From: a virus
Direction: 5' to 3' (one strand)
Virus record (IMG/VR): IMGVR_UViG_3300045988_007363
Span: 1 to 5,834 of that record
Length of the DNA stretch: 5,834 nt
Of the stretch, positions 1-5,834 are shown in pieces. Numbering within the stretch: position 1 is the first letter of the stretch; each line of letters opens with the position of its first letter. Below the pieces are notes generated by a model, which did no database searches, was not told the DNA's origin, and was given only the letters and a program-made list of their open reading frames with translations. A program made the position numbers and the translations under genes.

Positions 1-99
1 GTACAACGCCGCAGAAAGCTGGCAACAGATGCTCAGCACAACACATATGACACCCTACGGACTGACAAAAGCATTAACAAAAATTGCAAGCGGCACAGA
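1..99. repeat. Terminal redundancy, left copy, identical to 5736-5834. This is an assembly overlap of a circular genome.
   Basis: Base-by-base comparison shows all 99 nt identical to the last 99 nt of the window. The repeat lies inside one continuous reading frame (VP2). Confidence 0.95.
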
Positions 100-223
100 C
101 GATGCAATCAAAGATGCAGTAAAACCAACAACAAAACAACCAGACAAAAAAAACTACGTTAAACCGCAAGACAAAACAGGCAAATACGGAGAAAAAAGGA
201 AACCGGGTGATTATTTAAAATGA
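2..223 (+). CDS. VP2: 3' part of the minor capsid / DNA pilot protein VP2, continuing the frame opened at 5095 across the circular junction. Bases 2-99 duplicate 5737-5834.
   Basis: Position 1 (= 5736) is the third base of a TGG codon in the 5095 frame, and that frame continues to TGA 221-223. The track lists only the 29-223 fragment. The tail is Lys/Pro/Thr-rich (KPTTKQPDKKNYVKPQDKTGKYGEKRKPGDYLK). The stop overlaps the VP4 start (ATGA). Confidence 0.85.
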   Translation, partial: YNAAESWQQMLSTTHMTPYGLTKALTKIASGTDDAIKDAVKPTTKQPDKKNYVKPQDKTGKYGEKRKPGDYLK

Positions 224-1239
224 GTTGCTACAAGCCATTAATAAGGCTGTACAACCCGAACGATAAAGACATTAGCGGGAGGGTGTATTCACTCTCCCGC
301 TTTTCTCAATTAGCGGGAAGACAGCTCAAATATGAAGATCTAATGTACAGGAAAGATATAATGTTGATACCATGCGGGCAGTGTATCGGATGCAGAATCA
401 GACAAAGAGAGGACTGGACAACACGAATAGAATTAGAAGCAAAAGATTATCCAAGAGAACAAGTCTGGTTTATCACGCTAACCTATGATGACAATCATGT
501 ACCGGGCATGATAGTAAATACAGGCGAAATCATGCGAAAAGTTCAATACGTCTGGAAGCCAGGAGAGAAGCGCCCTGAAAGCGTCCAAACGTTGCTGTAT
601 ACTGACGTTCAAAAATTCTTAAAACGCCTCAGAAAGGCTTATAGGGGCAAATTACGCTATTTTATAGCGGGAGAGTACGGAGAGCAGACAGCAAGACCAC
701 ATTATCACATGATACTGTATGGATGGCAACCGACAGATCTAAAACACCTATACAAGATACAACACAACGGATACTTTACAAGTGAATGGCTATCAAACAT
801 ATGGGGAATGGGTCAAATACAGATAGCACAAGCAGTACCAGAAACCTATAGATATGTTGCTGGATACGTCACAAAAAAAATGTATGAGATAGACGGTCAC
901 AAAGCAAACGCATACTACGAACTAGGGCAAGCAAAACCATTCGCATGCATGAGCCTAAAGCCAGGTTTAGGCGATCACTATTACAAAGAGCACAAAGCAG
1001 AAATCTGGGAACAAGGCTATATCCAATGCACAAACGGCAAACACGCACAAATTCCGCGCTATTATGAAAAAATGATGAAAGCTGAAAACCCACAAAGATT
1101 ATGGCGAATTAAACAGAACAGACAAGCAAAAGCAATTGCAGAAAACCGGCTAAAATACGAAAACGCAGACTTTGCAGAACAGTGCAAGACAAAAGAAAGA
1201 GTGATCAAGAAGCAAATGAAGAGAAAAGGGACACTTTAA
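220..1239 (+). CDS. VP4: Replication initiation protein VP4, an HUH rolling-circle endonuclease analogous to phiX174 gene A.
   Basis: The 339-aa ORF has an N-terminal MSCYKPL followed by the IPCGQCIGCRIRQREDW cysteine cluster typical of gokushovirus VP4. It carries FITLTYDD (motif 1), the HUH motif PHYHMILYG (motif 2), and the two-tyrosine YxxxY motif YVAGYVTKK (motif 3), as in phiX174-type initiators. Confidence 0.95.
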   Translation: MSCYKPLIRLYNPNDKDISGRVYSLSRFSQLAGRQLKYEDLMYRKDIMLIPCGQCIGCRIRQREDWTTRIELEAKDYPREQVWFITLTYDDNHVPGMIVNTGEIMRKVQYVWKPGEKRPESVQTLLYTDVQKFLKRLRKAYRGKLRYFIAGEYGEQTARPHYHMILYGWQPTDLKHLYKIQHNGYFTSEWLSNIWGMGQIQIAQAVPETYRYVAGYVTKKMYEIDGHKANAYYELGQAKPFACMSLKPGLGDHYYKEHKAEIWEQGYIQCTNGKHAQIPRYYEKMMKAENPQRLWRIKQNRQAKAIAENRLKYENADFAEQCKTKERVIKKQMKRKGTL

Positions 1240-1256
1240 CAGTGTCATGGTGTCAC

Positions 1257-1292
1257 ATAGCCCAGTACCTATCAAGTAAGGTACTGGGCTAT
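1257..1292 (+). other. Perfect 14-bp stem-loop with an 8-nt loop, 18 nt after the VP4 stop. It is a candidate terminator or ssDNA origin/priming structure.
   Basis: Bases 1257-1270 (ATAGCCCAGTACCT) pair without mismatch to 1279-1292 (AGGTACTGGGCTAT). The loop is ATCAAGTA. The following TGTCGTCT is only moderately T-rich. The structure is certain; its function is not. Confidence 0.6.
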
Positions 1293-1351
1293 TGTCGTCT
1301 AAAGAGTCCATGTATCAAACTATTCAGTCTATCAAATAGCTATACTTTTAT

Positions 1352-1397
1352 CGCGCGTGCGCACGCGCGCGAAGCGCGCACGCGCGCATGCGCGGCC
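1352..1397. repeat. GC island of alternating purine/pyrimidine palindromes. It is prone to cruciform, Z-DNA or stable hairpin formation and may also act as an intrinsic terminator.
   Basis: 39 of 46 nt are G/C in an otherwise A-rich genome. There is an 18-nt perfect palindrome at 1352-1369 (CGCGCGTGCGCACGCGCG) and a 12-nt perfect palindrome at 1383-1394 (CGCGCATGCGCG). The 12-mer GCGCACGCGCGC occurs twice (1359-1370, 1376-1387). An alternative 11-bp pairing joins 1352-1362 with 1376-1386. Alternating Y/R tracts of 20 nt (1352-1371) and 21 nt (1374-1394) are present, followed by GCCTTTT. Confidence 0.85.
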
Positions 1398-1409
1398 TTT
1401 TAGGCACTA

Positions 1410-1439
1410 TTGTTCGCAAACTCACAAGTGCCGTATAAT
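1410..1439 (+). promoter_or_regulatory. Candidate sigma70-type promoter (weak -35, perfect -10).
   Basis: TTGTTC at 1410-1415, an 18-nt spacer, then TATAAT at 1434-1439, immediately downstream of the GC hairpin and T-run. The -35 matches only 3/6. Confidence 0.3.
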
Positions 1440-1479
1440 ATATAACTTGTTGTAGGAGTAGTAGTAGGGGTGGTGGAAA

Positions 1480-1647
1480 AGTTGAAAAGTACTAAAATTT
1501 AACGCTAAAGCGTAAATAAAAAGCAAAAAACACTGTTGAAAGTTTTGTTGAAAACTTGTTGAATTGTTGAAAGTTCGTCAAAATGACGGAAATCATTGTG
1601 CAACATTTTGTTGAAAACCTGTTGAAAGTGTTGAAAGTGTTGAAAAC
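1480..1647 (+). repeat. Iteron-like array of TGTTGAAA(AC/GT) repeats, all in the same orientation, in two clusters.
   Basis: Exact TGTTGAAA starts at 1534, 1546, 1565, 1609, 1620, 1629 and 1638. Near copies are AGTTGAAA at 1480 and TGTTGAAT at 1557. Spacings are 12, 11, 8 nt and 11, 9, 9 nt. Bases 1621-1647 form a 9-bp tandem run, GTTGAAAGT x2 followed by GTTGAAAAC (one mismatch). The clusters are separated by the small hairpin CGTCA-AAA-TGACG (1576-1588). Confidence 0.9.
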
Positions 1648-1680
1648 GCGCACAGCGCTTACAATGAATGGATTAGCCGA

Positions 1681-1699
1681 GCTCCGCATACGCTCCGCA
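1681..1699 (+). repeat. Direct repeat GCTCCGCA x2 with an 11-nt period.
   Basis: GCTCCGCA occurs at 1681-1688 and 1692-1699. The function is unknown. Confidence 0.5.
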
Positions 1700-1743
1700 C
1701 GGCAAGGCGCTAAAGCGCTCTCGAAACAAAGGAGCAAAACCAG

Positions 1744-1774
1744 GTTACAAGAGAAAGTTACAATTTTATTACAA
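1744..1774 (+). repeat. Three (G)TTACAA repeats immediately upstream of the peptidase promoter.
   Basis: GTTACAA occurs at 1744-1750 and 1757-1763, and TTACAA at 1769-1774, with spacings of 13 and 11 nt. They end 14 nt before the -35 box. Confidence 0.5.
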
Positions 1775-1787
1775 AACAGCAAAACCA

Positions 1788-1816
1788 TTGAAAAGCCTAT
1801 TGACAAGTAGTATAAT
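1788..1816 (+). promoter_or_regulatory. Near-consensus sigma70-type promoter for the peptidase-to-capsid gene train.
   Basis: TTGAAA at 1788-1793 (5/6), an exact 17-nt spacer, then TATAAT at 1811-1816 (6/6). It lies 44 nt upstream of ATG 1860 with AGAGGA in between. Confidence 0.6.
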
Positions 1817-1859
1817 AAAATTAGAGGAAGGTAAACAAAATAGAAGAGGATTAACAAAC

Positions 1860-2729: not shown

Positions 2730-2969
2730 ATGGAACATCTGTATTATGGACTGTGGGACAACGTAGCAAAGTGCTATGCATGGGTAGGCGAGAATAAGAA
2801 CAACGCAACGTTTGCACGAATGTGCAATGTAATGGAAAAGGATGAAAAAACCTTTGTAGGGCAGTCGCCGGAAGATTACACCGGCTATAAGTTAGCAAAA
2901 TTCAACGATGAAAACGGCGAATTTGTCAACGACAAGGAAAAAGTCTGGGAGGGCAAGCCGCATGAATAA
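2730..2969 (+). CDS. VP5-like non-structural protein, 79 aa.
   Basis: AAGGA at 2718-2722 lies 7 nt upstream of ATG 2730. The N-terminal LYYGLWDNVAKCY...NNATFARMC and central SPEDYTGYKLAKFNDENGEF resemble the pattern (xFxVxDxK...A.R.F...PEDFxLYxIGxFDdxxG) I recall for gokushovirus ORF5/VP5. The track start at GTG 2697 lacks an SD. Confidence 0.6.
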   Translation: MEHLYYGLWDNVAKCYAWVGENKNNATFARMCNVMEKDEKTFVGQSPEDYTGYKLAKFNDENGEFVNDKEKVWEGKPHE

Positions 2970-3360
2970 ACGATACGAGGAAGGGCGAGAGCCCTTCTTT
3001 TCCGAAAGCGGAGAAAAATTCCGGAAACAATACGTCTGGACAAAAGACGAAAAAGGACAAGAAGTACTGCAAGAAACAGCACCGATCGAAATTCAGCAAG
3101 AAATCGAAAGCTATGCTGAAGAATGCGATATTAAGAACATTATCCGAAAAGCAAGTTTTGACCCGCAATTTCTGAAAAGTCTATCACAGGGAGCACTAGA
3201 AGGAACAGAAGTGGACATCACCGAATTTCCACAAAACATTCATGAGTATCACCGCATGATAGCAACCGCACAGGCAAACGCAATAAAGCTTGAAGAGCTG
3301 AAAAAAATGGAAGCGGAAAAAGCAGAAGCAAAACCTGAAGCAAAGGAGGAAGAAAAGTGA
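2962..3360 (+). CDS. VP3: Internal scaffolding protein VP3, 132 aa.
   Basis: GGAGG at 2948-2952 lies 9 nt upstream of ATG 2962, which overlaps the upstream stop (ATGAATAA). The motif ECDIKNIIRK matches the conserved ECDIN.I..K core of Chlamydia-phage-type scaffold proteins. The C-terminal tail is acidic with alternating lysine/glutamate. It lies directly upstream of the capsid gene. The track start at 2908 has no SD. Confidence 0.75.
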   Translation: MNKRYEEGREPFFSESGEKFRKQYVWTKDEKGQEVLQETAPIEIQQEIESYAEECDIKNIIRKASFDPQFLKSLSQGALEGTEVDITEFPQNIHEYHRMIATAQANAIKLEELKKMEAEKAEAKPEAKEEEK

Positions 3361-5054
3361 ATCGAAACAATGAACGACACTTCAACCAAATTCCGGAAAT
3401 GAAAGCAAGCCGAACACGATTCAACCGTGACCAGACTATTCTCACAACGTTTGATGCTGGAAAACTGATTCCGTTTTACGTTGACGAAGTATTGCCGGGC
3501 GATACATTTAACGTGAACACGACAGCAATCATCCGAATGACGACACCGAAATTTCCGGTGATGGATGATGCATTCATCGACTTCTATTACTTCTATTGTC
3601 CAAATCGCATCCTATGGAAAAACTTTAAGCAGTTCATGGGAGAAGTAGAAAACAAACCCTGGATGCCAGAAAAAACGTACAAAGTACCAGAAATAAAAAT
3701 CGAAGGAACTGCAAATTCGGCAAAACCTCTCGAAAGAAGCATCCTAGACTACATGGGAGTGCCGACAAAAGTAAAAAGCACCTTCAAAATTAACGCATTG
3801 CCAATCAGAGCATATGTAATGATCTGGAACGAATTTTTCAGAGACGAAAATGTAGGAAATGCGGCAGTATGGAAAGATGATGACAGCGATGTAACATACA
3901 CCCAGAGCTACAATGAAAACTCAACCAACGCGGACAAAATGGAAAAAGAGCTAAGAGAAGCAATTACCGGCGGACTCTGTCTACCGGTAAACAAATTCCA
4001 CGACTACTTCTCAAGCTGTCTCCCCTATGCTCAACGTGGGCCGGCAGTGGCGCTACCAATGGAAGGTAATGCACCTATCAGATTGGGAAACACCAACGGA
4101 GAATACCAAGATTTCCGCGGACCATTAGAAATGGTAGTAGACGCACATGGAGCCAACACACCCGGTTCTCTGGTATACACAAATAGCACAGGAGCACCCG
4201 GTGAAAAGAAAACGATGCAGTTCACCGGAAAAGACAGAACAACCAACGAACTAGGCGGAGGGGGCTGGATGTATGCAGACATCAGCACAGTAACCGCAAC
4301 AACCATCAACGACCTGAGAAAAGCCGTAGCAGTGCAACAGTACTACGAGGCACTAGCACGAGGGGGTAGCAGATACCGCGAACAGGTACAAGCACTGTGG
4401 GATGTAGTAATCAGCGATAAAACCGTACAGGTGCCGGAATACCTAGGCGGTGGCAGATACCACGTAAATATTAACCAAATCGTACAGACAAGCGGACAGC
4501 AGACCAACACGGACACGCCTATTGGTGAAACTGGTGCAATGTCAGTAACGCCCATCAATGAAAGCAGTTTTACAAAATCTTTCGAGGAACACGGATTTGT
4601 AATCGGAGTATGTTGTGTACGACACAATCACAGTTACCAGCAAGGGCTTGAACGATTCTGGAGCCGAAACGACAGGCTTGACTACTACGTGCCTCAATTT
4701 GCAAACCTGGGAGAACAGCCGGTAAAAAAGAAAGAAATCATGCTCACTGGCACGGCAACAGATGAAGAAACCTTCGGATACCAAGAAGCATGGGCAGAAT
4801 ACAGAATGAAGCCAAACCGAGTATCTGGCCTGATGAGAAGCAACGCAGTCGGAACGTTAGACTTCTGGCACTATGCCGACAACTATTCAACCGTACCGAC
4901 ACTGTCGCAAGAGTGGATGGCAGAAGGAAAGAAAGAAATCGCAAGGACATTGATCGTGCAGAACGAGCCACAGTTTTTCGGCGCAATCCGAGTAGCAAAC
5001 AAAACCACAAGACGTATGCCGTTGTACAGCGTACCGGGCTTGTACAAACTGTAA
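3357..5054 (+). CDS. VP1: Major capsid protein VP1 (F-like jelly-roll capsid).
   Basis: The protein is 565 aa. The N-terminal FNQIPEMKASRTRFNRDQTILTTFDAGKLIPFYVDEVLPGDTF is the canonical gokushovirus VP1 signature. AAGGAGGA at 3343-3350 precedes GTG 3357 (GGAGG core 7 nt upstream), which overlaps the VP3 stop (GTGA). A downstream alternative ATG lies at 3399. Confidence 0.95.
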   Translation: MNRNNERHFNQIPEMKASRTRFNRDQTILTTFDAGKLIPFYVDEVLPGDTFNVNTTAIIRMTTPKFPVMDDAFIDFYYFYCPNRILWKNFKQFMGEVENKPWMPEKTYKVPEIKIEGTANSAKPLERSILDYMGVPTKVKSTFKINALPIRAYVMIWNEFFRDENVGNAAVWKDDDSDVTYTQSYNENSTNADKMEKELREAITGGLCLPVNKFHDYFSSCLPYAQRGPAVALPMEGNAPIRLGNTNGEYQDFRGPLEMVVDAHGANTPGSLVYTNSTGAPGEKKTMQFTGKDRTTNELGGGGWMYADISTVTATTINDLRKAVAVQQYYEALARGGSRYREQVQALWDVVISDKTVQVPEYLGGGRYHVNINQIVQTSGQQTNTDTPIGETGAMSVTPINESSFTKSFEEHGFVIGVCCVRHNHSYQQGLERFWSRNDRLDYYVPQFANLGEQPVKKKEIMLTGTATDEETFGYQEAWAEYRMKPNRVSGLMRSNAVGTLDFWHYADNYSTVPTLSQEWMAEGKKEIARTLIVQNEPQFFGAIRVANKTTRRMPLYSVPGLYKL

Positions 5055-5094: not shown

Positions 5095-5834
5095 ATGAAT
5101 GTATTATCAGGACTCTTAACAGGACTCAACGTAGCGGGAAACGTAGCAAACACGCTCAACACACTAACAAATACAGGAAAAAACATCGCGGGAATGTTCG
5201 GCGGCTGGGGACAAACCGGAAACAGCCAAAGCCAGGGCGGGAGCGTAAGCCAGGGAGGCGGGCACTCGGAAAGCGGAAGCCAATCCGGAACAAACATCCA
5301 ACAGGTAAATGACTGGCTTAAACAGGCATATGCATACCAAGGGCAAGAAGCCGCCATGCAAGGTAAATACAACAGTCAAAGTATGCTTAAACAGATGGGC
5401 TACAATACCTTACAAGCAATAATGCAAGGCGTATATAACCACATTGAAAACAGCGTAGCAATGAACTACAACAGTGCAGAAGCACTAGCAAACCGTGAAT
5501 GGCAAGAACACATGTCAAGCACCGCATACCAGCGTGCAGTTGAAGACATGAAAAAAGCGGGACTTAATCCAATCTTAGCCTTTTCAAACGGCGGAGCGAG
5601 CACGCCGGGCGGCTCAGCGGGAACAATCAGCGGTGCAAGTATGGGACTTGCAAGCAGCAGCGCACTAGGAGTAAGCAGAAGCAGCGGATTCGTACCGAAC
5701 GCATACGAAAGCACTAGCTGGTCGAAAAGCGACTGGTACAACGCCGCAGAAAGCTGGCAACAGATGCTCAGCACAACACATATGACACCCTACGGACTGA
5801 CAAAAGCATTAACAAAAATTGCAAGCGGCACAGA
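5095..5834 (+). CDS. VP2: Minor capsid / DNA pilot protein VP2, 5' part. The frame is open to the window end and continues at position 100 of the circle (287 aa in total).
   Basis: An in-frame TAA (5092-5094) immediately precedes ATG 5095, and no stop occurs through 5834. The hallmark NREWQEHMSSTAYQRAVEDMKKAGLNPILAF (5491-5583) is characteristic of gokushovirus VP2. There is a Gly/Ser/Gln-rich linker at 5218-5289. It is absent from the ORF track because it has no stop inside the window. Confidence 0.9.
   Translation, partial: MNVLSGLLTGLNVAGNVANTLNTLTNTGKNIAGMFGGWGQTGNSQSQGGSVSQGGGHSESGSQSGTNIQQVNDWLKQAYAYQGQEAAMQGKYNSQSMLKQMGYNTLQAIMQGVYNHIENSVAMNYNSAEALANREWQEHMSSTAYQRAVEDMKKAGLNPILAFSNGGASTPGGSAGTISGASMGLASSSALGVSRSSGFVPNAYESTSWSKSDWYNAAESWQQMLSTTHMTPYGLTKALTKIASGT
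5736..5834. repeat. Terminal redundancy, right copy, identical to 1-99.
   Basis: See the left copy. All 99 nt are identical. Confidence 0.95.

What the first reader, a model, noticed from the sequence alone, without database searches (positions are those of the whole stretch)
1240..1859. About 620 nt (11% of a 5.7-kb genome) with no convincing gene but densely packed with ordered structure
Microviruses are extremely compact. Here eight of the nine junctions in the gene train overlap or lie within 16 nt, the exception being the 40-nt VP1-VP2 spacer, which holds the hairpin described below. Yet one contiguous block of 620 nt between VP4 and the peptidase has no SD-supported ORF.

In order, it contains:
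- a 14-bp perfect hairpin
- three (C/G)TATCAA motifs at 1269-1275, 1312-1318 and 1329-1335
- an 85% GC palindrome island followed by a T-run
- a TATAAT box
- a G-rich (GTA)n/GGTGG tract
- two clusters of TGTTGAAA repeats
- the 10-mer CGCTAAAGCG twice (1503-1512, 1708-1717), each a small hairpin
- GCTCCGCA x2
- TTACAA x3
- a near-consensus promoter

This organisation fits a replication and transcription control region. It may instead be a structured leader or ncRNA of about 400 nt if the 1434 -10 box is active. It looks far more elaborate than the intergenic regions of the characterised microviruses I know, such as phiX174, G4 and Chlamydia phages.
Basis: partly seen in the sequence, partly recalled or inferred. 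Interest (0 to 1): 0.7.

Follow-up and report, generated by a model that had tools for sequence, protein, structure and literature searches.

The report
Bacterial-origin-like DnaA module in a microvirus
The gene-free 620 bases of this small gut virus hold a conserved copy of the DNA signals that bacteria use to start copying their own chromosome, which suggests the virus recruits the host's replication starter protein, something not described for this virus family.

Summary
Window 1240-1859 has no conserved ORF, and every listed motif is at the stated coordinates.

The region is not one element. It is four modules that recombine between lineages:
- A (1249-1335): a GTGTCA motif plus a hairpin with covarying stem and invariant loop CTATCAAG. 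It always lies on the gene strand next to VP4.
- B (1352-1394): an 84% GC island of alternating purines and pyrimidines.
- C (1434-1646): the core.
- D (1647-1816): GC-rich hairpins, TTACAA repeats and a near-consensus sigma-70 promoter.

Module C has the architecture of a bacterial oriC basal unwinding system. It contains an A/T tract, TAG-type DnaA-trios, a 4-nt G-rich spacer, two overlapping DnaA boxes and eight further same-strand boxes in helical phase.

Module C occurs in more than 100 gokushovirus genomes whose VP4 is only 38-94% identical. Trios and boxes are conserved and the spacers are not. It is inverted relative to the genes in 22 genomes. It shows no consensus RNA structure and no conserved reading frame.

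A related trio-spacer-box pattern hit only four places in 185,579 species genomes. Two of them are canonical dnaA-dnaN origins.

Best reading: a module on the double-stranded replicative form that host DnaA binds to open the DNA. I found no prior report. Binding, unwinding and host are untested.

The parts
1249..1256 (+). GGTGTCAC motif. GTGTCA is invariant and lies just 5' of the hairpin (module A).
   Evidence: Invariant in 14 diverse and 68 distinct hairpin sequences. The VP4~40% clade has GGTGTCAAC.
1257..1292 (+). Hairpin with 14-bp stem and loop ATCAAGTA. The conserved loop motif CTATCAAG is at 1269-1276. It is locked to the strand of VP4. Candidate site where VP4 acts (viral-strand origin); this role is inferred.
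   Evidence: I1; 9 consensus pairs, 5 with compensatory double changes, loop invariant; on the gene strand in every locus where it was found, even where module C is inverted.
1312..1335 (+). Two further (G/C)TATCAA copies (1312-1318, 1329-1335).
   Evidence: Conserved only in close relatives.
1352..1394 (.). Module B: 84% GC island of (CGCGCA)n type with alternating purines and pyrimidines. It is palindromic and can form a hairpin or cruciform.
   Evidence: (D3, I3, I4, I9). Similar islands abut the A/T tract in many relatives. It stays in place when module C is inverted (L019).
1434..1446 (+). A/T tract TATAATATATAAC (8% GC). Candidate DNA unwinding element of module C.
   Evidence: In 65 non-redundant copies the uninterrupted A/T run has a median of 12 nt and a maximum of 25 nt. 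The exact sequence is not conserved.
1444..1452 (+). Invariant AACTTGTTG between the A/T tract and the trios. Function unknown.
   Evidence: Not part of the published definition of the basal unwinding system (BUS).
1453..1467 (+). DnaA-trio array TAG GAG TAG TAG TAG (5'-TAG-3' = 3'-GAT-5'). The complementary strand carries overlapping 5'-TnnT-3' motifs, the DnaD recognition element type.
   Evidence: the three box-proximal trios are TAG in 65, 64 and 61 of 65 copies, while trio 4 has a central A in only 34 of 65. Definitions from PMC8287927, bioRxiv 10.1101/2022.03.18.484894 and PMC10201434.
1468..1471 (+). 4-nt G-rich spacer GGGT.
   Evidence: The spacer is 4 nt in 52 of 65 copies and 60% G+C. 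The published average for this GC-rich gap is 4 bp.
1472..1488 (+). Two overlapping DnaA boxes, GGTGGAAAA (1472-1480) and AGTTGAAAA (1480-1488). The family consensus is TGTGGAAAA/AGTTGAAAA.
   Evidence: The 8-nt offset resembles the overlapping boxes 6 and 7 of B. subtilis and the box pairs in the Poribacteria oriC loci L132 and L135.
1489..1533 (+). Variable A-rich spacer with the small hairpin CGCTAAAGCG (1503-1512).
   Evidence: The sequence is variable and only an ACG...CG core is conserved.
1534..1573 (+). DnaA-box cluster 1: TGTTGAAAG (1534), TGTTGAAAA (1546), TGTTGAAT (1557), TGTTGAAAG (1565).
   Evidence: At homologous positions other genomes have TGTGGATAA, the perfect consensus, or TGTGGAAAA.
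1574..1608 (+). Spacer between the clusters, with lineage-specific inverted repeats.
   Evidence: (I7).
1609..1646 (+). DnaA-box cluster 2: boxes at 1609, 1620, 1629 and 1638.
   Evidence: Distances from the first box cluster at multiples of 10.5 bp.
1647..1787 (+). Module D, upstream part: GC-rich hairpins (GCGCACAGCGC, GCTCCGCA x2, GGCGCTAAAGCGC) and GTTACAA x3 (1744-1774).
   Evidence: The same sequence follows the VP4 stop directly, without module C, in the VP4~40% clade, where the CGCTAAAGCG hairpin is followed by TTTTC.
1788..1816 (+). Sigma-70-type promoter TTGAAA-17-TATAAT for the peptidase and downstream genes.
   Evidence: At least 11 of 12 positions match in 58 of 79 related genomes, 24 of them perfectly, 90-145 nt after the last box in most of them.

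Best explanation
The core of the region (1434-1646) is a virus-borne copy of the bacterial chromosome-origin 'basal unwinding system'. It is most likely worked by the host initiator DnaA on the double-stranded replicative form.

Proposed mechanism:
1. ATP-DnaA binds about ten same-strand DnaA boxes that are in helical phase. A few are stronger TGTGG-type boxes and the rest are weaker TGTTG-type boxes.
2. DnaA oligomerises from the overlapping box pair, across a 4-nt G-rich spacer, onto the three invariant TAG trios.
3. This melts the adjoining A/T tract.
4. The opened DNA then serves as an entry point for the host helicase and replisome. The (CTA)n strand offers TnnT motifs of the kind bound by DnaD in Firmicutes.
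5. In 93 of 101 genomes the A/T end faces the VP4-linked hairpin (20-258 nt away). The opening may therefore also expose that hairpin to the VP4 rolling-circle nuclease.

The flanks are a VP4-associated hairpin (candidate viral-strand origin), a GC island, and a promoter region for the downstream genes.

Shown: the architecture, its conservation pattern, orientation independence, and the absence of RNA or coding signatures.

Inferred: DnaA binding, unwinding, helicase loading and the link to VP4.
For: 1. Architecture. A strict pattern was tested: at least three TAG trios, a spacer of at most 6 nt, a box with at most 2 mismatches, and correct polarity. It occurs once in the window, at 1453-1480, and in 1 of 2000 Markov-shuffled windows.

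2. The published BUS criteria are met. These are a box, a 0-16-nt spacer, at least three NAN trios with TAG preferred, a tandem or overlapping second box, distal boxes, and an A/T tract.

3. Conservation.
- blastn finds the block in 44 GenBank gokushoviruses.
- A pattern scan finds it in about 90 IMG/VR genomes.
- VP4 in these genomes is only 38-94% identical.
- Core nucleotide identity is still 60-81% where VP4 is below 60% identical.
- The conserved columns are the trios and boxes, and the spacers vary.

4. Trios. Trios 1-3 are nearly invariant and trio 4 is free. This matches B. subtilis, where only the three proximal trios are required.

5. Box variants. At homologous positions the boxes interchange between TGTGGATAA (perfect consensus), TGTGGAAAA, TGTTGATAA and TGTTGAAAA. 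Position 4 is G in 37% and T in 63%, never C. There are 4.7 forward boxes against 0.37 reverse boxes per element. Some lineages add an inverted TTTTCCACA.

6. Phasing. Box distances of 62, 74, 85, 93, 137, 148, 157 and 167 nt are close to multiples of 10.5. Phase coherence is 0.62, against 0.29-0.36 for periods of 9, 10 and 11.

7. Independent check. The pattern GTAGTAGTAG-N5-TGTKGAAAA hit only 4 places in the 596-Gb species set. Two of them are dnaA-[boxes-trios-AT]-dnaN-recF origins.

8. Orientation. The module is inverted relative to the genes in 22 of 101 genomes. In three of these VP4 is about 90% identical to this one, and exactly the A/T-tract-to-last-box cassette is flipped. This points to action on duplex DNA.

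9. Host. Gut gokushoviruses are predicted to infect Clostridiales (PMC10159846). The C. difficile trio array is TAGTAGTAATAGTAGTAG-GTG. The sigma-70 promoters agree with such a host.
Against: - No binding or unwinding data exist, and the host is unknown.
- Most boxes are TGTTGAAAA. This differs from TTATCCACA at a position (C6) that, from my knowledge of E. coli DnaA, is important for binding. If they bind at all, they would be low-affinity cooperative sites.
- Rolling-circle microviruses have no known need for DnaA.
- The invariant AACTTGTTG next to the trios is not explained by the BUS model.
- The lenient published BUS pattern is not discriminating on its own in 5.8 kb: 3 boxes observed against 5.0 at random.
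- My genome scan used a 5-nt spacer by miscount, whereas the viral mode is 4 nt. It shows that such patterns mark real origins. It did not search for the host's own origin.
- Part of the trio conservation was forced by the retrieval pattern. Only trio 4, the first two bases of trio 3 and the centre of trio 2 were free.
Confidence: 0.68

Rival explanations
1. DnaA sink or DnaA-responsive switch. The box array binds host DnaA but does not fire as an origin. It would either titrate DnaA away from the host oriC (datA-like), stalling host initiation during infection, or couple the nearby strong promoter to the host's DnaA-ATP state.
For: - There are about ten boxes per genome, multiplied by many replicative-form copies.
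- The array lies 90-145 nt upstream of a near-consensus promoter in most genomes.
- Orientation independence fits a binding array.
Against: - Titration or transcription control does not need three invariant box-proximal trios at a fixed 4-nt spacing, nor an adjoining A/T tract.
- In the VP4~40% clade the module is not next to that promoter, because module D follows VP4 there.
Confidence: 0.15
2. Iterons for a virus-encoded protein. The TGTTGAAA repeats and the invariant AACTTGTTG would be the binding and nicking sites of VP4, making this the rolling-circle plus-strand origin itself.
For: - The block lies next to VP4 in all genomes.
- AACTTG is shared with the phiX174 nick site CAACTTG^A (from memory).
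- Iterons beside a nick site are usual for HUH Rep proteins (my knowledge).
Against: - The boxes do not co-vary with VP4 over 38-94% identity, whereas the GTGTCA-hairpin does change with the VP4 clade.
- The block is inverted in genomes whose VP4 is about 90% identical, which would switch the packaged strand.
- No phiX-type 18-mer is present at up to 3 mismatches.
- The same trio-spacer-box arrangement occurs in chromosomal origins that have no VP4.
Confidence: 0.07
3. Array for another host DNA-binding protein, for example Spo0A. Its 0A box TGTCGAA is one base from TGTTGAA. This would link viral replication to sporulation, as in phi29.
For: - TGTTGAA is one mismatch from the 0A box (my knowledge).
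- The predicted hosts are Clostridiales.
- In B. subtilis oriC, 0A boxes overlap DnaA boxes (my knowledge).
Against: - Position 4 is never C in about 300 boxes, and its alternative is G, the DnaA consensus.
- Perfect TGTGGATAA boxes occur at homologous positions.
- The adjacent trios and spacer are specific to DnaA.
Confidence: 0.05
4. Structured non-coding RNA or leader of about 400 nt, transcribed from the 1434 TATAAT.
For: - TATAAT is at 1434.
- There are many small inverted repeats.
Against: - RNAalifold gives 0 consensus pairs over 62 diverse copies.
- There is no Rfam hit in the region, even at E<=1.
- The TATAAT is not conserved and no -35 was found.
- Conservation lies in short direct repeats, not in paired columns.
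- 1640-1745 folds no better than shuffles.
Confidence: 0.03
5. A small protein gene: ORF 1583-1810 (+, 75 aa) or ORF 1492-1857 (-, 121 aa).
For: - ORF 1583-1810 has a weak PHROG hit (phrog_15214, E=0.004).
- It shows a mild excess of third-position changes, 56/45/79.
- Some GenBank records annotate hypothetical proteins here.
Against: - The frame is broken by 1-nt indels or stops in 4 of 9 close homologues, and the ATG is lost in more distant ones.
- No plus-strand frame is stop-free in any of 65 cores.
- Core lengths differ by amounts that are not multiples of 3.
- The 9-nt box repeat itself produces a 3-base periodicity.
- There is no Pfam hit.
Confidence: 0.02

Closest known systems
Basal unwinding system (BUS) of bacterial chromosome origins, e.g. 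Bacillus subtilis incC (DnaA boxes 6/7 + DnaA-trios + AT-rich 27-mer) and C. difficile oriC2
   Same: - Same parts in the same order and polarity: distal DnaA boxes, an overlapping proximal box pair, a ~4-bp GC-rich gap, at least three 3'-GAT-5' trios and an A/T tract.
- Only the three proximal trios are constrained.
- The complementary strand carries TnnT (DnaD recognition element) motifs.
- The trio array resembles B. subtilis TAGTAGAAGTAATAGTAG and C. difficile TAGTAGTAATAGTAGTAG.
   Different: - It sits in a 5.8-kb ssDNA virus that replicates by rolling circle, not between dnaA and dnaN.
- Most boxes are the TGTTGAAAA variant.
- All boxes point one way and are tightly phased.
- There is an extra invariant AACTTGTTG.
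- The proximal box, not the distal one, is closer to the consensus.
- DnaA binding is untested.
Plasmid and phage origins that use host DnaA boxes as auxiliaries (pSC101, F, P1, RK2, R6K; from my knowledge)
   Same: A mobile replicon carries DnaA boxes beside an A/T-rich region and its own initiator gene.
   Different: - Those origins depend on iterons bound by the plasmid's own Rep, and DnaA only helps.
- To my knowledge they lack a trio-type BUS.
- Here the virus initiator is an HUH nickase and the DnaA module looks complete on its own.
DnaA-dependent 'ABC primosome' at the R6K A-site hairpin, which can replace the complementary-strand origin of ssDNA phages (Masai and Arai; from my knowledge)
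   Same: DnaA used by a single-stranded replicon to load helicase and primase.
   Different: - The A-site needs a DnaA box inside a hairpin stem on the single strand, so it is strand-specific.
- Here the boxes are direct repeats that cannot pair, and the module works in either orientation.
phiX174 30-bp viral-strand origin and G4 complementary-strand origin hairpins
   Same: - Cis-acting replication signals of Microviridae.
- The strand-locked GTGTCA-hairpin (module A) is the likelier counterpart of these.
   Different: - No phiX-type origin sequence is present.
- phiX174 and G4 have no DnaA boxes or trios that I know of, and their intergenic regions are far shorter.
datA and DnaA-box clusters that titrate or inactivate DnaA
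   Same: A dense cluster of DnaA boxes outside oriC.
   Different: datA needs no trios or unwinding tract. The fixed trio geometry here argues for unwinding.

Membership tests
oriC-type basal unwinding system (BUS) | DnaA box with at most 2 mismatches to TTATCCACA | tested here: met
   The window has GGTGGAAAA at 1472-1480 (2 mismatches). The family consensus TGTGGAAAA has 1 mismatch. Perfect TGTGGATAA occurs at distal positions in some genomes.
oriC-type basal unwinding system (BUS) | Spacer of 0-16 bp between box and first trio, with a GC-rich gap of about 4 bp | tested here: met
   4 nt (GGGT) in the window. 4 nt in 52 of 65 copies, 60% G+C. Criterion.
oriC-type basal unwinding system (BUS) | At least three consecutive trios with a central A, preferring 3'-GAT-5', on the strand and side fixed by the box polarity | tested here: met
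   TAG GAG TAG TAG TAG at 1453-1467. Polarity is identical to the dnaA-dnaN origins L132 and L135 and to the published B. subtilis strand. Trios 1-3 are TAG in 61-65 of 65 copies.
oriC-type basal unwinding system (BUS) | Second, tandem or overlapping DnaA box next to the first | tested here: met
   AGTTGAAAA at 1480-1488, offset 8 nt. B. subtilis box 7 overlaps box 6.
oriC-type basal unwinding system (BUS) | A/T-rich unwinding element beyond the trios, and distal DnaA boxes upstream | tested here: met
   1434-1446 is 8% GC. Eight further boxes lie 62-167 nt away, in helical phase. Distal boxes act at a distance and show phasing in B. subtilis.
oriC-type basal unwinding system (BUS) | ATP-DnaA binds and separates the strands | not testable with these tools
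   Needs EMSA, footprinting and strand-separation assays with DnaA from a candidate host.
Bacterial chromosomal oriC (the locus) | Located on a bacterial chromosome, typically beside dnaA/dnaN | tested here: not met
   It lies between VP4 and a peptidase gene of a 5.8-kb gokushovirus. All VP4 homologues are on contigs of at most 8.4 kb. It works like an oriC part but is not an oriC.
Structured RNA family (Rfam or new) | Conserved secondary structure with covariation, or a match to a curated model | tested here: not met
   No Rfam hit in the region at E<=1. 0 consensus pairs in 62 copies of module C. Only the separate hairpin 1257-1292 covaries.
phiX174-type viral-strand origin | Conserved origin sequence CAACTTGATATTAATAAC (from my knowledge) | tested here: not met
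   0 matches at up to 3 mismatches. There is only a 6-mer AACTTG at 1444, and ACTTGATA on the minus strand of the hairpin loop.
Iteron-type replicon origin | Direct repeats that co-vary with, and are bound by, the replicon's own initiator | tested here: inconclusive
   The repeats do not co-vary with VP4 over 38-94% identity, which argues against this. Binding was not tested.
Spo0A-box array | TGNCGAA core with a conserved C at position 4 (from my knowledge) | tested here: not met
   Position 4 is G 37%, T 63%, C 0%.

The most novel reading that the evidence does not exclude
These gut gokushoviruses carry a complete second origin operated by host DnaA. Their double-stranded replicative form can then be opened and replicated by the host's chromosomal initiation machinery. 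This could happen in two ways:
- as a minichromosome-like episome that persists without an integrase, in step with the host cell cycle; or
- as a DnaA-assisted start for the VP4 rolling circle.

Either way, a rolling-circle ssDNA phage would be tied to the bacterial initiator. That could help explain the long-term stable carriage of microviruses in the gut.
Probability: 0.25. Interest if true: 0.9.

Novelty: new variant of a known kind. Interest (0 to 1): 0.78.

Why it matters
- Replication model. Microviridae are the textbook rolling-circle phages and are among the most abundant viruses of the human gut, yet gokushovirus replication signals and hosts are largely unknown. A conserved DnaA-box/DnaA-trio module of chromosomal-origin type would mean that a large gut clade engages the host's master initiator. 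This challenges the phiX174-derived view that only Rep/A protein plus the host elongation machinery is needed.
- Persistence. It offers a route to plasmid-like persistence or to manipulating host initiation.
- Host prediction. It gives a host-linked sequence signal, since box and trio dialects could help predict hosts.
- Replication research. It supplies a natural, minimal and highly sampled 215-bp BUS variant. More than 100 natural 'mutants' show which positions tolerate change. The pattern already matches B. subtilis biochemistry, where the three proximal trios are essential.
- Testability. Everything can be tested with oligonucleotides, purified DnaA and synthetic 5.8-kb genomes.

Tried and rejected
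- Known RNA. Rfam at E<=1 gave only a chance hit inside VP4. There are no tRNA or tmRNA genes.
- ncRNA structure. RNAalifold on 62 cores gave no pairs. 1640-1745 folds no better than shuffles.
- Coding.
  - No Pfam hit.
  - One weak PHROG hit for ORF 1583-1810.
  - That frame is broken in 4 of 9 close homologues, and no frame is conserved in 65 cores.
- Plasmid relatives. blastn against PLSDB found no match.
- Host through prophages. 2785 VP4 homologues were found and the 120 best listed. All 120 are on contigs of at most 8.4 kb. One is labelled Chlamydia trachomatis, probably sample carry-over.
- Host oriC through the genome scan. It found real origins, but in Poribacteria, which is not a plausible host.
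- 'A close relative lacks the region'. MG945219 looked like a case, but it is a partial record that breaks off inside the trio array. KT264793 carries the element with one mismatch to my search pattern.
- phiX174-type origin. Absent.
- The lenient published BUS search. It is not discriminating in a 5.8-kb sequence, so I used a strict version.
- Literature. 'Microviridae' + 'DnaA box', 'gokushovirus' + 'DnaA' and 'microvirus' + 'DnaA boxes' each gave 0 papers. 'DnaA-trio' + 'phage genome' gave nothing relevant.
Full report
**What the window is**

The window is a complete gokushovirus genome.
- VP4, the rolling-circle Rep protein, is at 220-1239.
- A peptidase M15 is at 1860-2252.
- VP5 is at 2697-2969, VP3 at 2908-3360 and VP1 at 3357-5054.
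- VP2 runs across the window end.

Its nearest GenBank relatives are human and pig gut gokushoviruses, such as KX513868 at 87% identity. The finding covers the 620 nt between VP4 and the peptidase gene.

**Check of the observation**

Every listed feature is present at the stated coordinates.
- The 14-bp perfect hairpin is at 1257-1292.
- The three (C/G)TATCAA copies are present.
- The GC island at 1352-1394 is 84% GC, and 42 of 47 steps alternate purine and pyrimidine across 1349-1396. It folds strongly; 1240-1440 has z = -6.7.
- TATAAT is at 1434.
- The TAG/GTA tract is at 1453-1467.
- TGTTGAAA occurs seven times in two clusters. The window has 8 copies against 0.58 expected, and 0 of 200 shuffles reach that.
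- CGCTAAAGCG x2 and GCTCCGCA x2 are present, as is TTACAA x3.
- The TTGAAA-17-TATAAT promoter is at 1788-1816.
- No ORF in the region has a Pfam match.

**Conservation**

The region is conserved, but unevenly. blastn finds window 1434-1650 in 44 phage records. These include gokushoviruses whose genes are too diverged for nucleotide matching.

Together with the GenBank loci it gave 101 genome-sized loci carrying the block.
- VP4 in these genomes is 38-94% identical to the window's, and VP1 is 38-93% identical.
- Where VP4 is below 60% identical, the 213-nt core still keeps 60-81% nucleotide identity.
- In 65 non-redundant copies, the conserved columns are short motifs and the stretches between them vary freely.

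**What the core is**

The consensus reads: A/T tract - AACTTGTTG - TAG NNG TAG TAG TAG - 4 nt - TGTGGAAAA/AGTTGAAAA. About 50 variable nt follow, then four TGTKGAAA boxes, about 35 variable nt, and four more boxes.

TGTGGAAAA is the reverse complement of TTTTCCACA, one mismatch from the DnaA box TTATCCACA. [quoted passage not shown]

The published basal unwinding system (BUS) is defined as follows (PMC8287927; PMC6669920):
- a DnaA box with at most 2 mismatches;
- a spacer of 0-16 bp, including a GC-rich gap of about 4 bp;
- at least three trios with a central A;
- often a second tandem box;
- an A/T-rich region beyond the trios.

All of these are met at 1434-1488. That lenient definition is not discriminating in 5.8 kb, where I found 3 boxes against 5.0 at random. 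A strict version requires at least three TAG, a spacer of at most 6 nt and correct polarity. It occurs once in the window and in 1 of 2000 shuffled windows.

**Finer agreement with experimental work**

- In B. subtilis only the three box-proximal trios are necessary and sufficient. Box 7 overlaps box 6 (bioRxiv 10.1101/2022.03.18.484894).
- In the viruses, trios 1-3 are TAG in 65, 64 and 61 of 65 copies. Trio 4 has a central A in only 34 of 65. Part of this was forced by my retrieval pattern. The free positions were trio 4, the first two bases of trio 3 and the centre of trio 2.
- The two proximal boxes overlap by one base, an 8-nt offset.
- The spacer is 4 nt in 52 of 65 copies.
- The strand complementary to the trios, (CTA)n, carries overlapping 5'-TnnT-3' motifs. 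This is the DnaD recognition element of Firmicutes (PMC10201434).
- The C. difficile trio array, TAGTAGTAATAGTAGTAG-GTG, is very similar (PMC7561715).

**The boxes behave like DnaA boxes**

- At homologous positions different genomes carry TGTGGATAA (the perfect consensus), TGTGGAAAA, TGTTGATAA or TGTTGAAAA.
- Position 4 is G in 37% and T in 63%, and never C.
- Boxes are almost all on one strand, 4.7 against 0.37 per element.
- Some lineages add an inverted TTTTCCACA at the far end.
- The median is 9 boxes per element.
- Their distances from the first box cluster at 62, 74, 85, 93, 137, 148, 157 and 167 nt. These are close to multiples of 10.5. Phase coherence is 0.62, against 0.29-0.36 for periods of 9, 10 and 11.
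- This phasing is what a cooperative protein array on one face of the helix would show. It recalls the helical phasing of the distal box in B. subtilis.

**Independent check against bacterial genomes**

I scanned 185,579 species genomes with GTAGTAGTAG-N5-TGTKGAAAA and found four hits.
- Two lie inside ORFs and are chance matches.
- Two, both in Ca. Poribacteria MAGs, are textbook origins. Their order is dnaA, many TTATCCACA boxes, TGTGGAAAAGTGGAWAAC, a 5-nt spacer, (TAG)5-6, an A/T tract, dnaN and recF.

I later realised the viral modal spacer is 4 nt, not 5. The scan therefore shows that this motif combination marks real origins. It was not a search for the host's own origin.

**Orientation and modularity**

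The module is on the gene strand just 3' of VP4 in 79 loci. It is inverted relative to the genes in 22.
- In L019, L081 and L127, whose VP4 is 89-93% identical to the window's, exactly the cassette from A/T tract to last box is flipped. It sits between the GC island and the sequence that corresponds to window 1647 onwards.
- In the VP4~40% clade the module lies between VP2 and VP4. There, window-like 1647-1816 follows the VP4 stop directly.

So the 620 nt consist of four modules, A to D. Module C works in either orientation. This argues for action on duplex DNA, and against a strand-specific signal on the single-stranded DNA or a cis-acting RNA.

**Module A**

GTGTCA followed by a hairpin with loop CTATCAAG is a real structure.
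- It has 9 consensus pairs, 5 with compensatory changes, and wholly different stems such as AGCCCAGTACCT and GTGGGCCTAATCCT.
- It is always on the gene strand beside VP4.
- The VP4~40% clade has a variant, GGTGTCAAC plus a hairpin with loop ATAGACAAGGAAG, 20 nt from the A/T end of module C.
- In 93 of 101 loci the hairpin lies on the A/T side of module C.

It changes with the VP4 clade while the boxes do not. It is therefore the better candidate for the site where VP4 acts. This is an inference, and no nick site has been mapped. No phiX174-type origin is present.

**Alternatives tested**

- RNA: there is no Rfam family, and RNAalifold gives 0 pairs in 62 copies.
- Coding:
  - No plus-strand frame is stop-free in any core, and lengths differ by amounts that are not multiples of 3.
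  - ORF 1583-1810 has a weak PHROG hit but is broken in 4 of 9 close homologues.
  - Its mild third-position bias is explained by the 9-nt box repeat.
- Spo0A boxes (TGTCGAA): excluded by the absence of C at position 4.
- Plasmids: no similar DNA.
- Prophages: none found.

**Module D and the host**

A promoter matching TTGACA-17-TATAAT in at least 11 of 12 positions is present in 58 of 79 genomes. In most of these it lies 90-145 nt after the last box. Canonical sigma-70 promoters and a Firmicute-style BUS with a DnaD recognition element fit the published prediction that gut gokushoviruses infect Clostridiales (PMC10159846).

**Mechanism proposed**

On the replicative form, ATP-DnaA fills the phased box array. 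It extends from the overlapping box pair onto the three TAG trios and opens the A/T tract. Host helicase-loading proteins then enter.

The outcome could be any of three things:
- replication of the replicative form in theta mode;
- help for VP4 in reaching its hairpin;
- merely sequestration of DnaA.

The fixed trio geometry favours real unwinding over pure titration. Binding, unwinding and the biological role are all inferred.

**Novelty**

Full-text searches linking Microviridae, gokushovirus or microvirus with DnaA boxes returned nothing. The kind of element is known. Its presence as a conserved cassette in a rolling-circle ssDNA phage clade appears to be new.

Noticed in passing
L146 ~1208-1232(-), L166 ~12777-12801(-), L138/L147/L162, L155, L160, L161: An IMG/VR scan with TAGTAGTAG-N3-7-TGTGGATAA found complete BUS-like sites on large contigs that look like dsDNA phages. 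Each has an A/T flank, (TAG)3-5, a 4-nt G-rich spacer, an overlapping box pair and 5-9 DnaA boxes within 300 nt. Neighbouring genes are RecT or cell-wall hydrolase/ExoX-like. In the loci whose flanking ORFs were checked (L146, L166, L138, L155, L160), none matched dnaA or dnaN. Origin-type DnaA modules may be more widespread in phages.
   Followed up: partly
window 1444-1452: AACTTGTTG, immediately 5' of the trios, is invariant in all copies, yet it is not part of the published BUS definition. One Poribacteria origin (L132) has AAACTTAG at the same place. It shares AACTTG with the phiX174 nick site (from memory). Unexplained.
   Followed up: partly
window 1270-1277 (-): The minus strand of the conserved hairpin loop reads ACTTGATA. 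This is the 8-mer spanning the phiX174 origin nick site (CAACTTG^ATA, from memory). It is the only copy in the window, and 33 of 200 shuffles have at least one copy somewhere. It may be coincidence.
   Followed up: no
L136 (MG945219) 5191-5201: This 'partial genome' GenBank record ends inside the TAG trio array. The repeat-rich module probably breaks short-read assemblies. If so, presence or absence of the module in draft microvirus genomes is unreliable.
   Followed up: yes
P0071; L087 (5753 nt): A VP4 that is 83% identical is deposited as 'Uncharacterised protein [Chlamydia trachomatis]' on a 5753-nt contig. An IMG 'genome' contig of the same length (L087) carries the element. This is most likely gut gokushovirus carry-over in a clinical sample, not evidence of a host.
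   Followed up: no
L005, L012, L017, L035, L042, L061: distal end of module C: Several lineages carry an extra DnaA box of opposite polarity, (AAG)TTTTCCACA, just after the last forward box. This gives a convergent pair.
   Followed up: no
window 1647-1816 versus L021/L035/L054/L089 downstream of VP4: The block after the last box is nearly identical in the VP4~40% clade, where it follows the VP4 stop directly. It includes the GC hairpins, CGCTAAAGCG, GTTACAA x3 and the promoter. In that clade the CGCTAAAGCG hairpin is followed by TTTTC, which looks like an intrinsic terminator. The T-run has decayed in the window.
   Followed up: partly
window 29-223: The 64-aa ORF at the start of the window is the C-terminus of VP2, the pilot protein (phrog_8742, E=5e-8). 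The window is therefore a circular genome opened inside VP2.
   Followed up: yes
window 270-355: A weak Rfam match to Termite-leu (20.9 bits against a gathering score of 51, E=0.55) lies inside the VP4 coding region. I treat it as chance.
   Followed up: no
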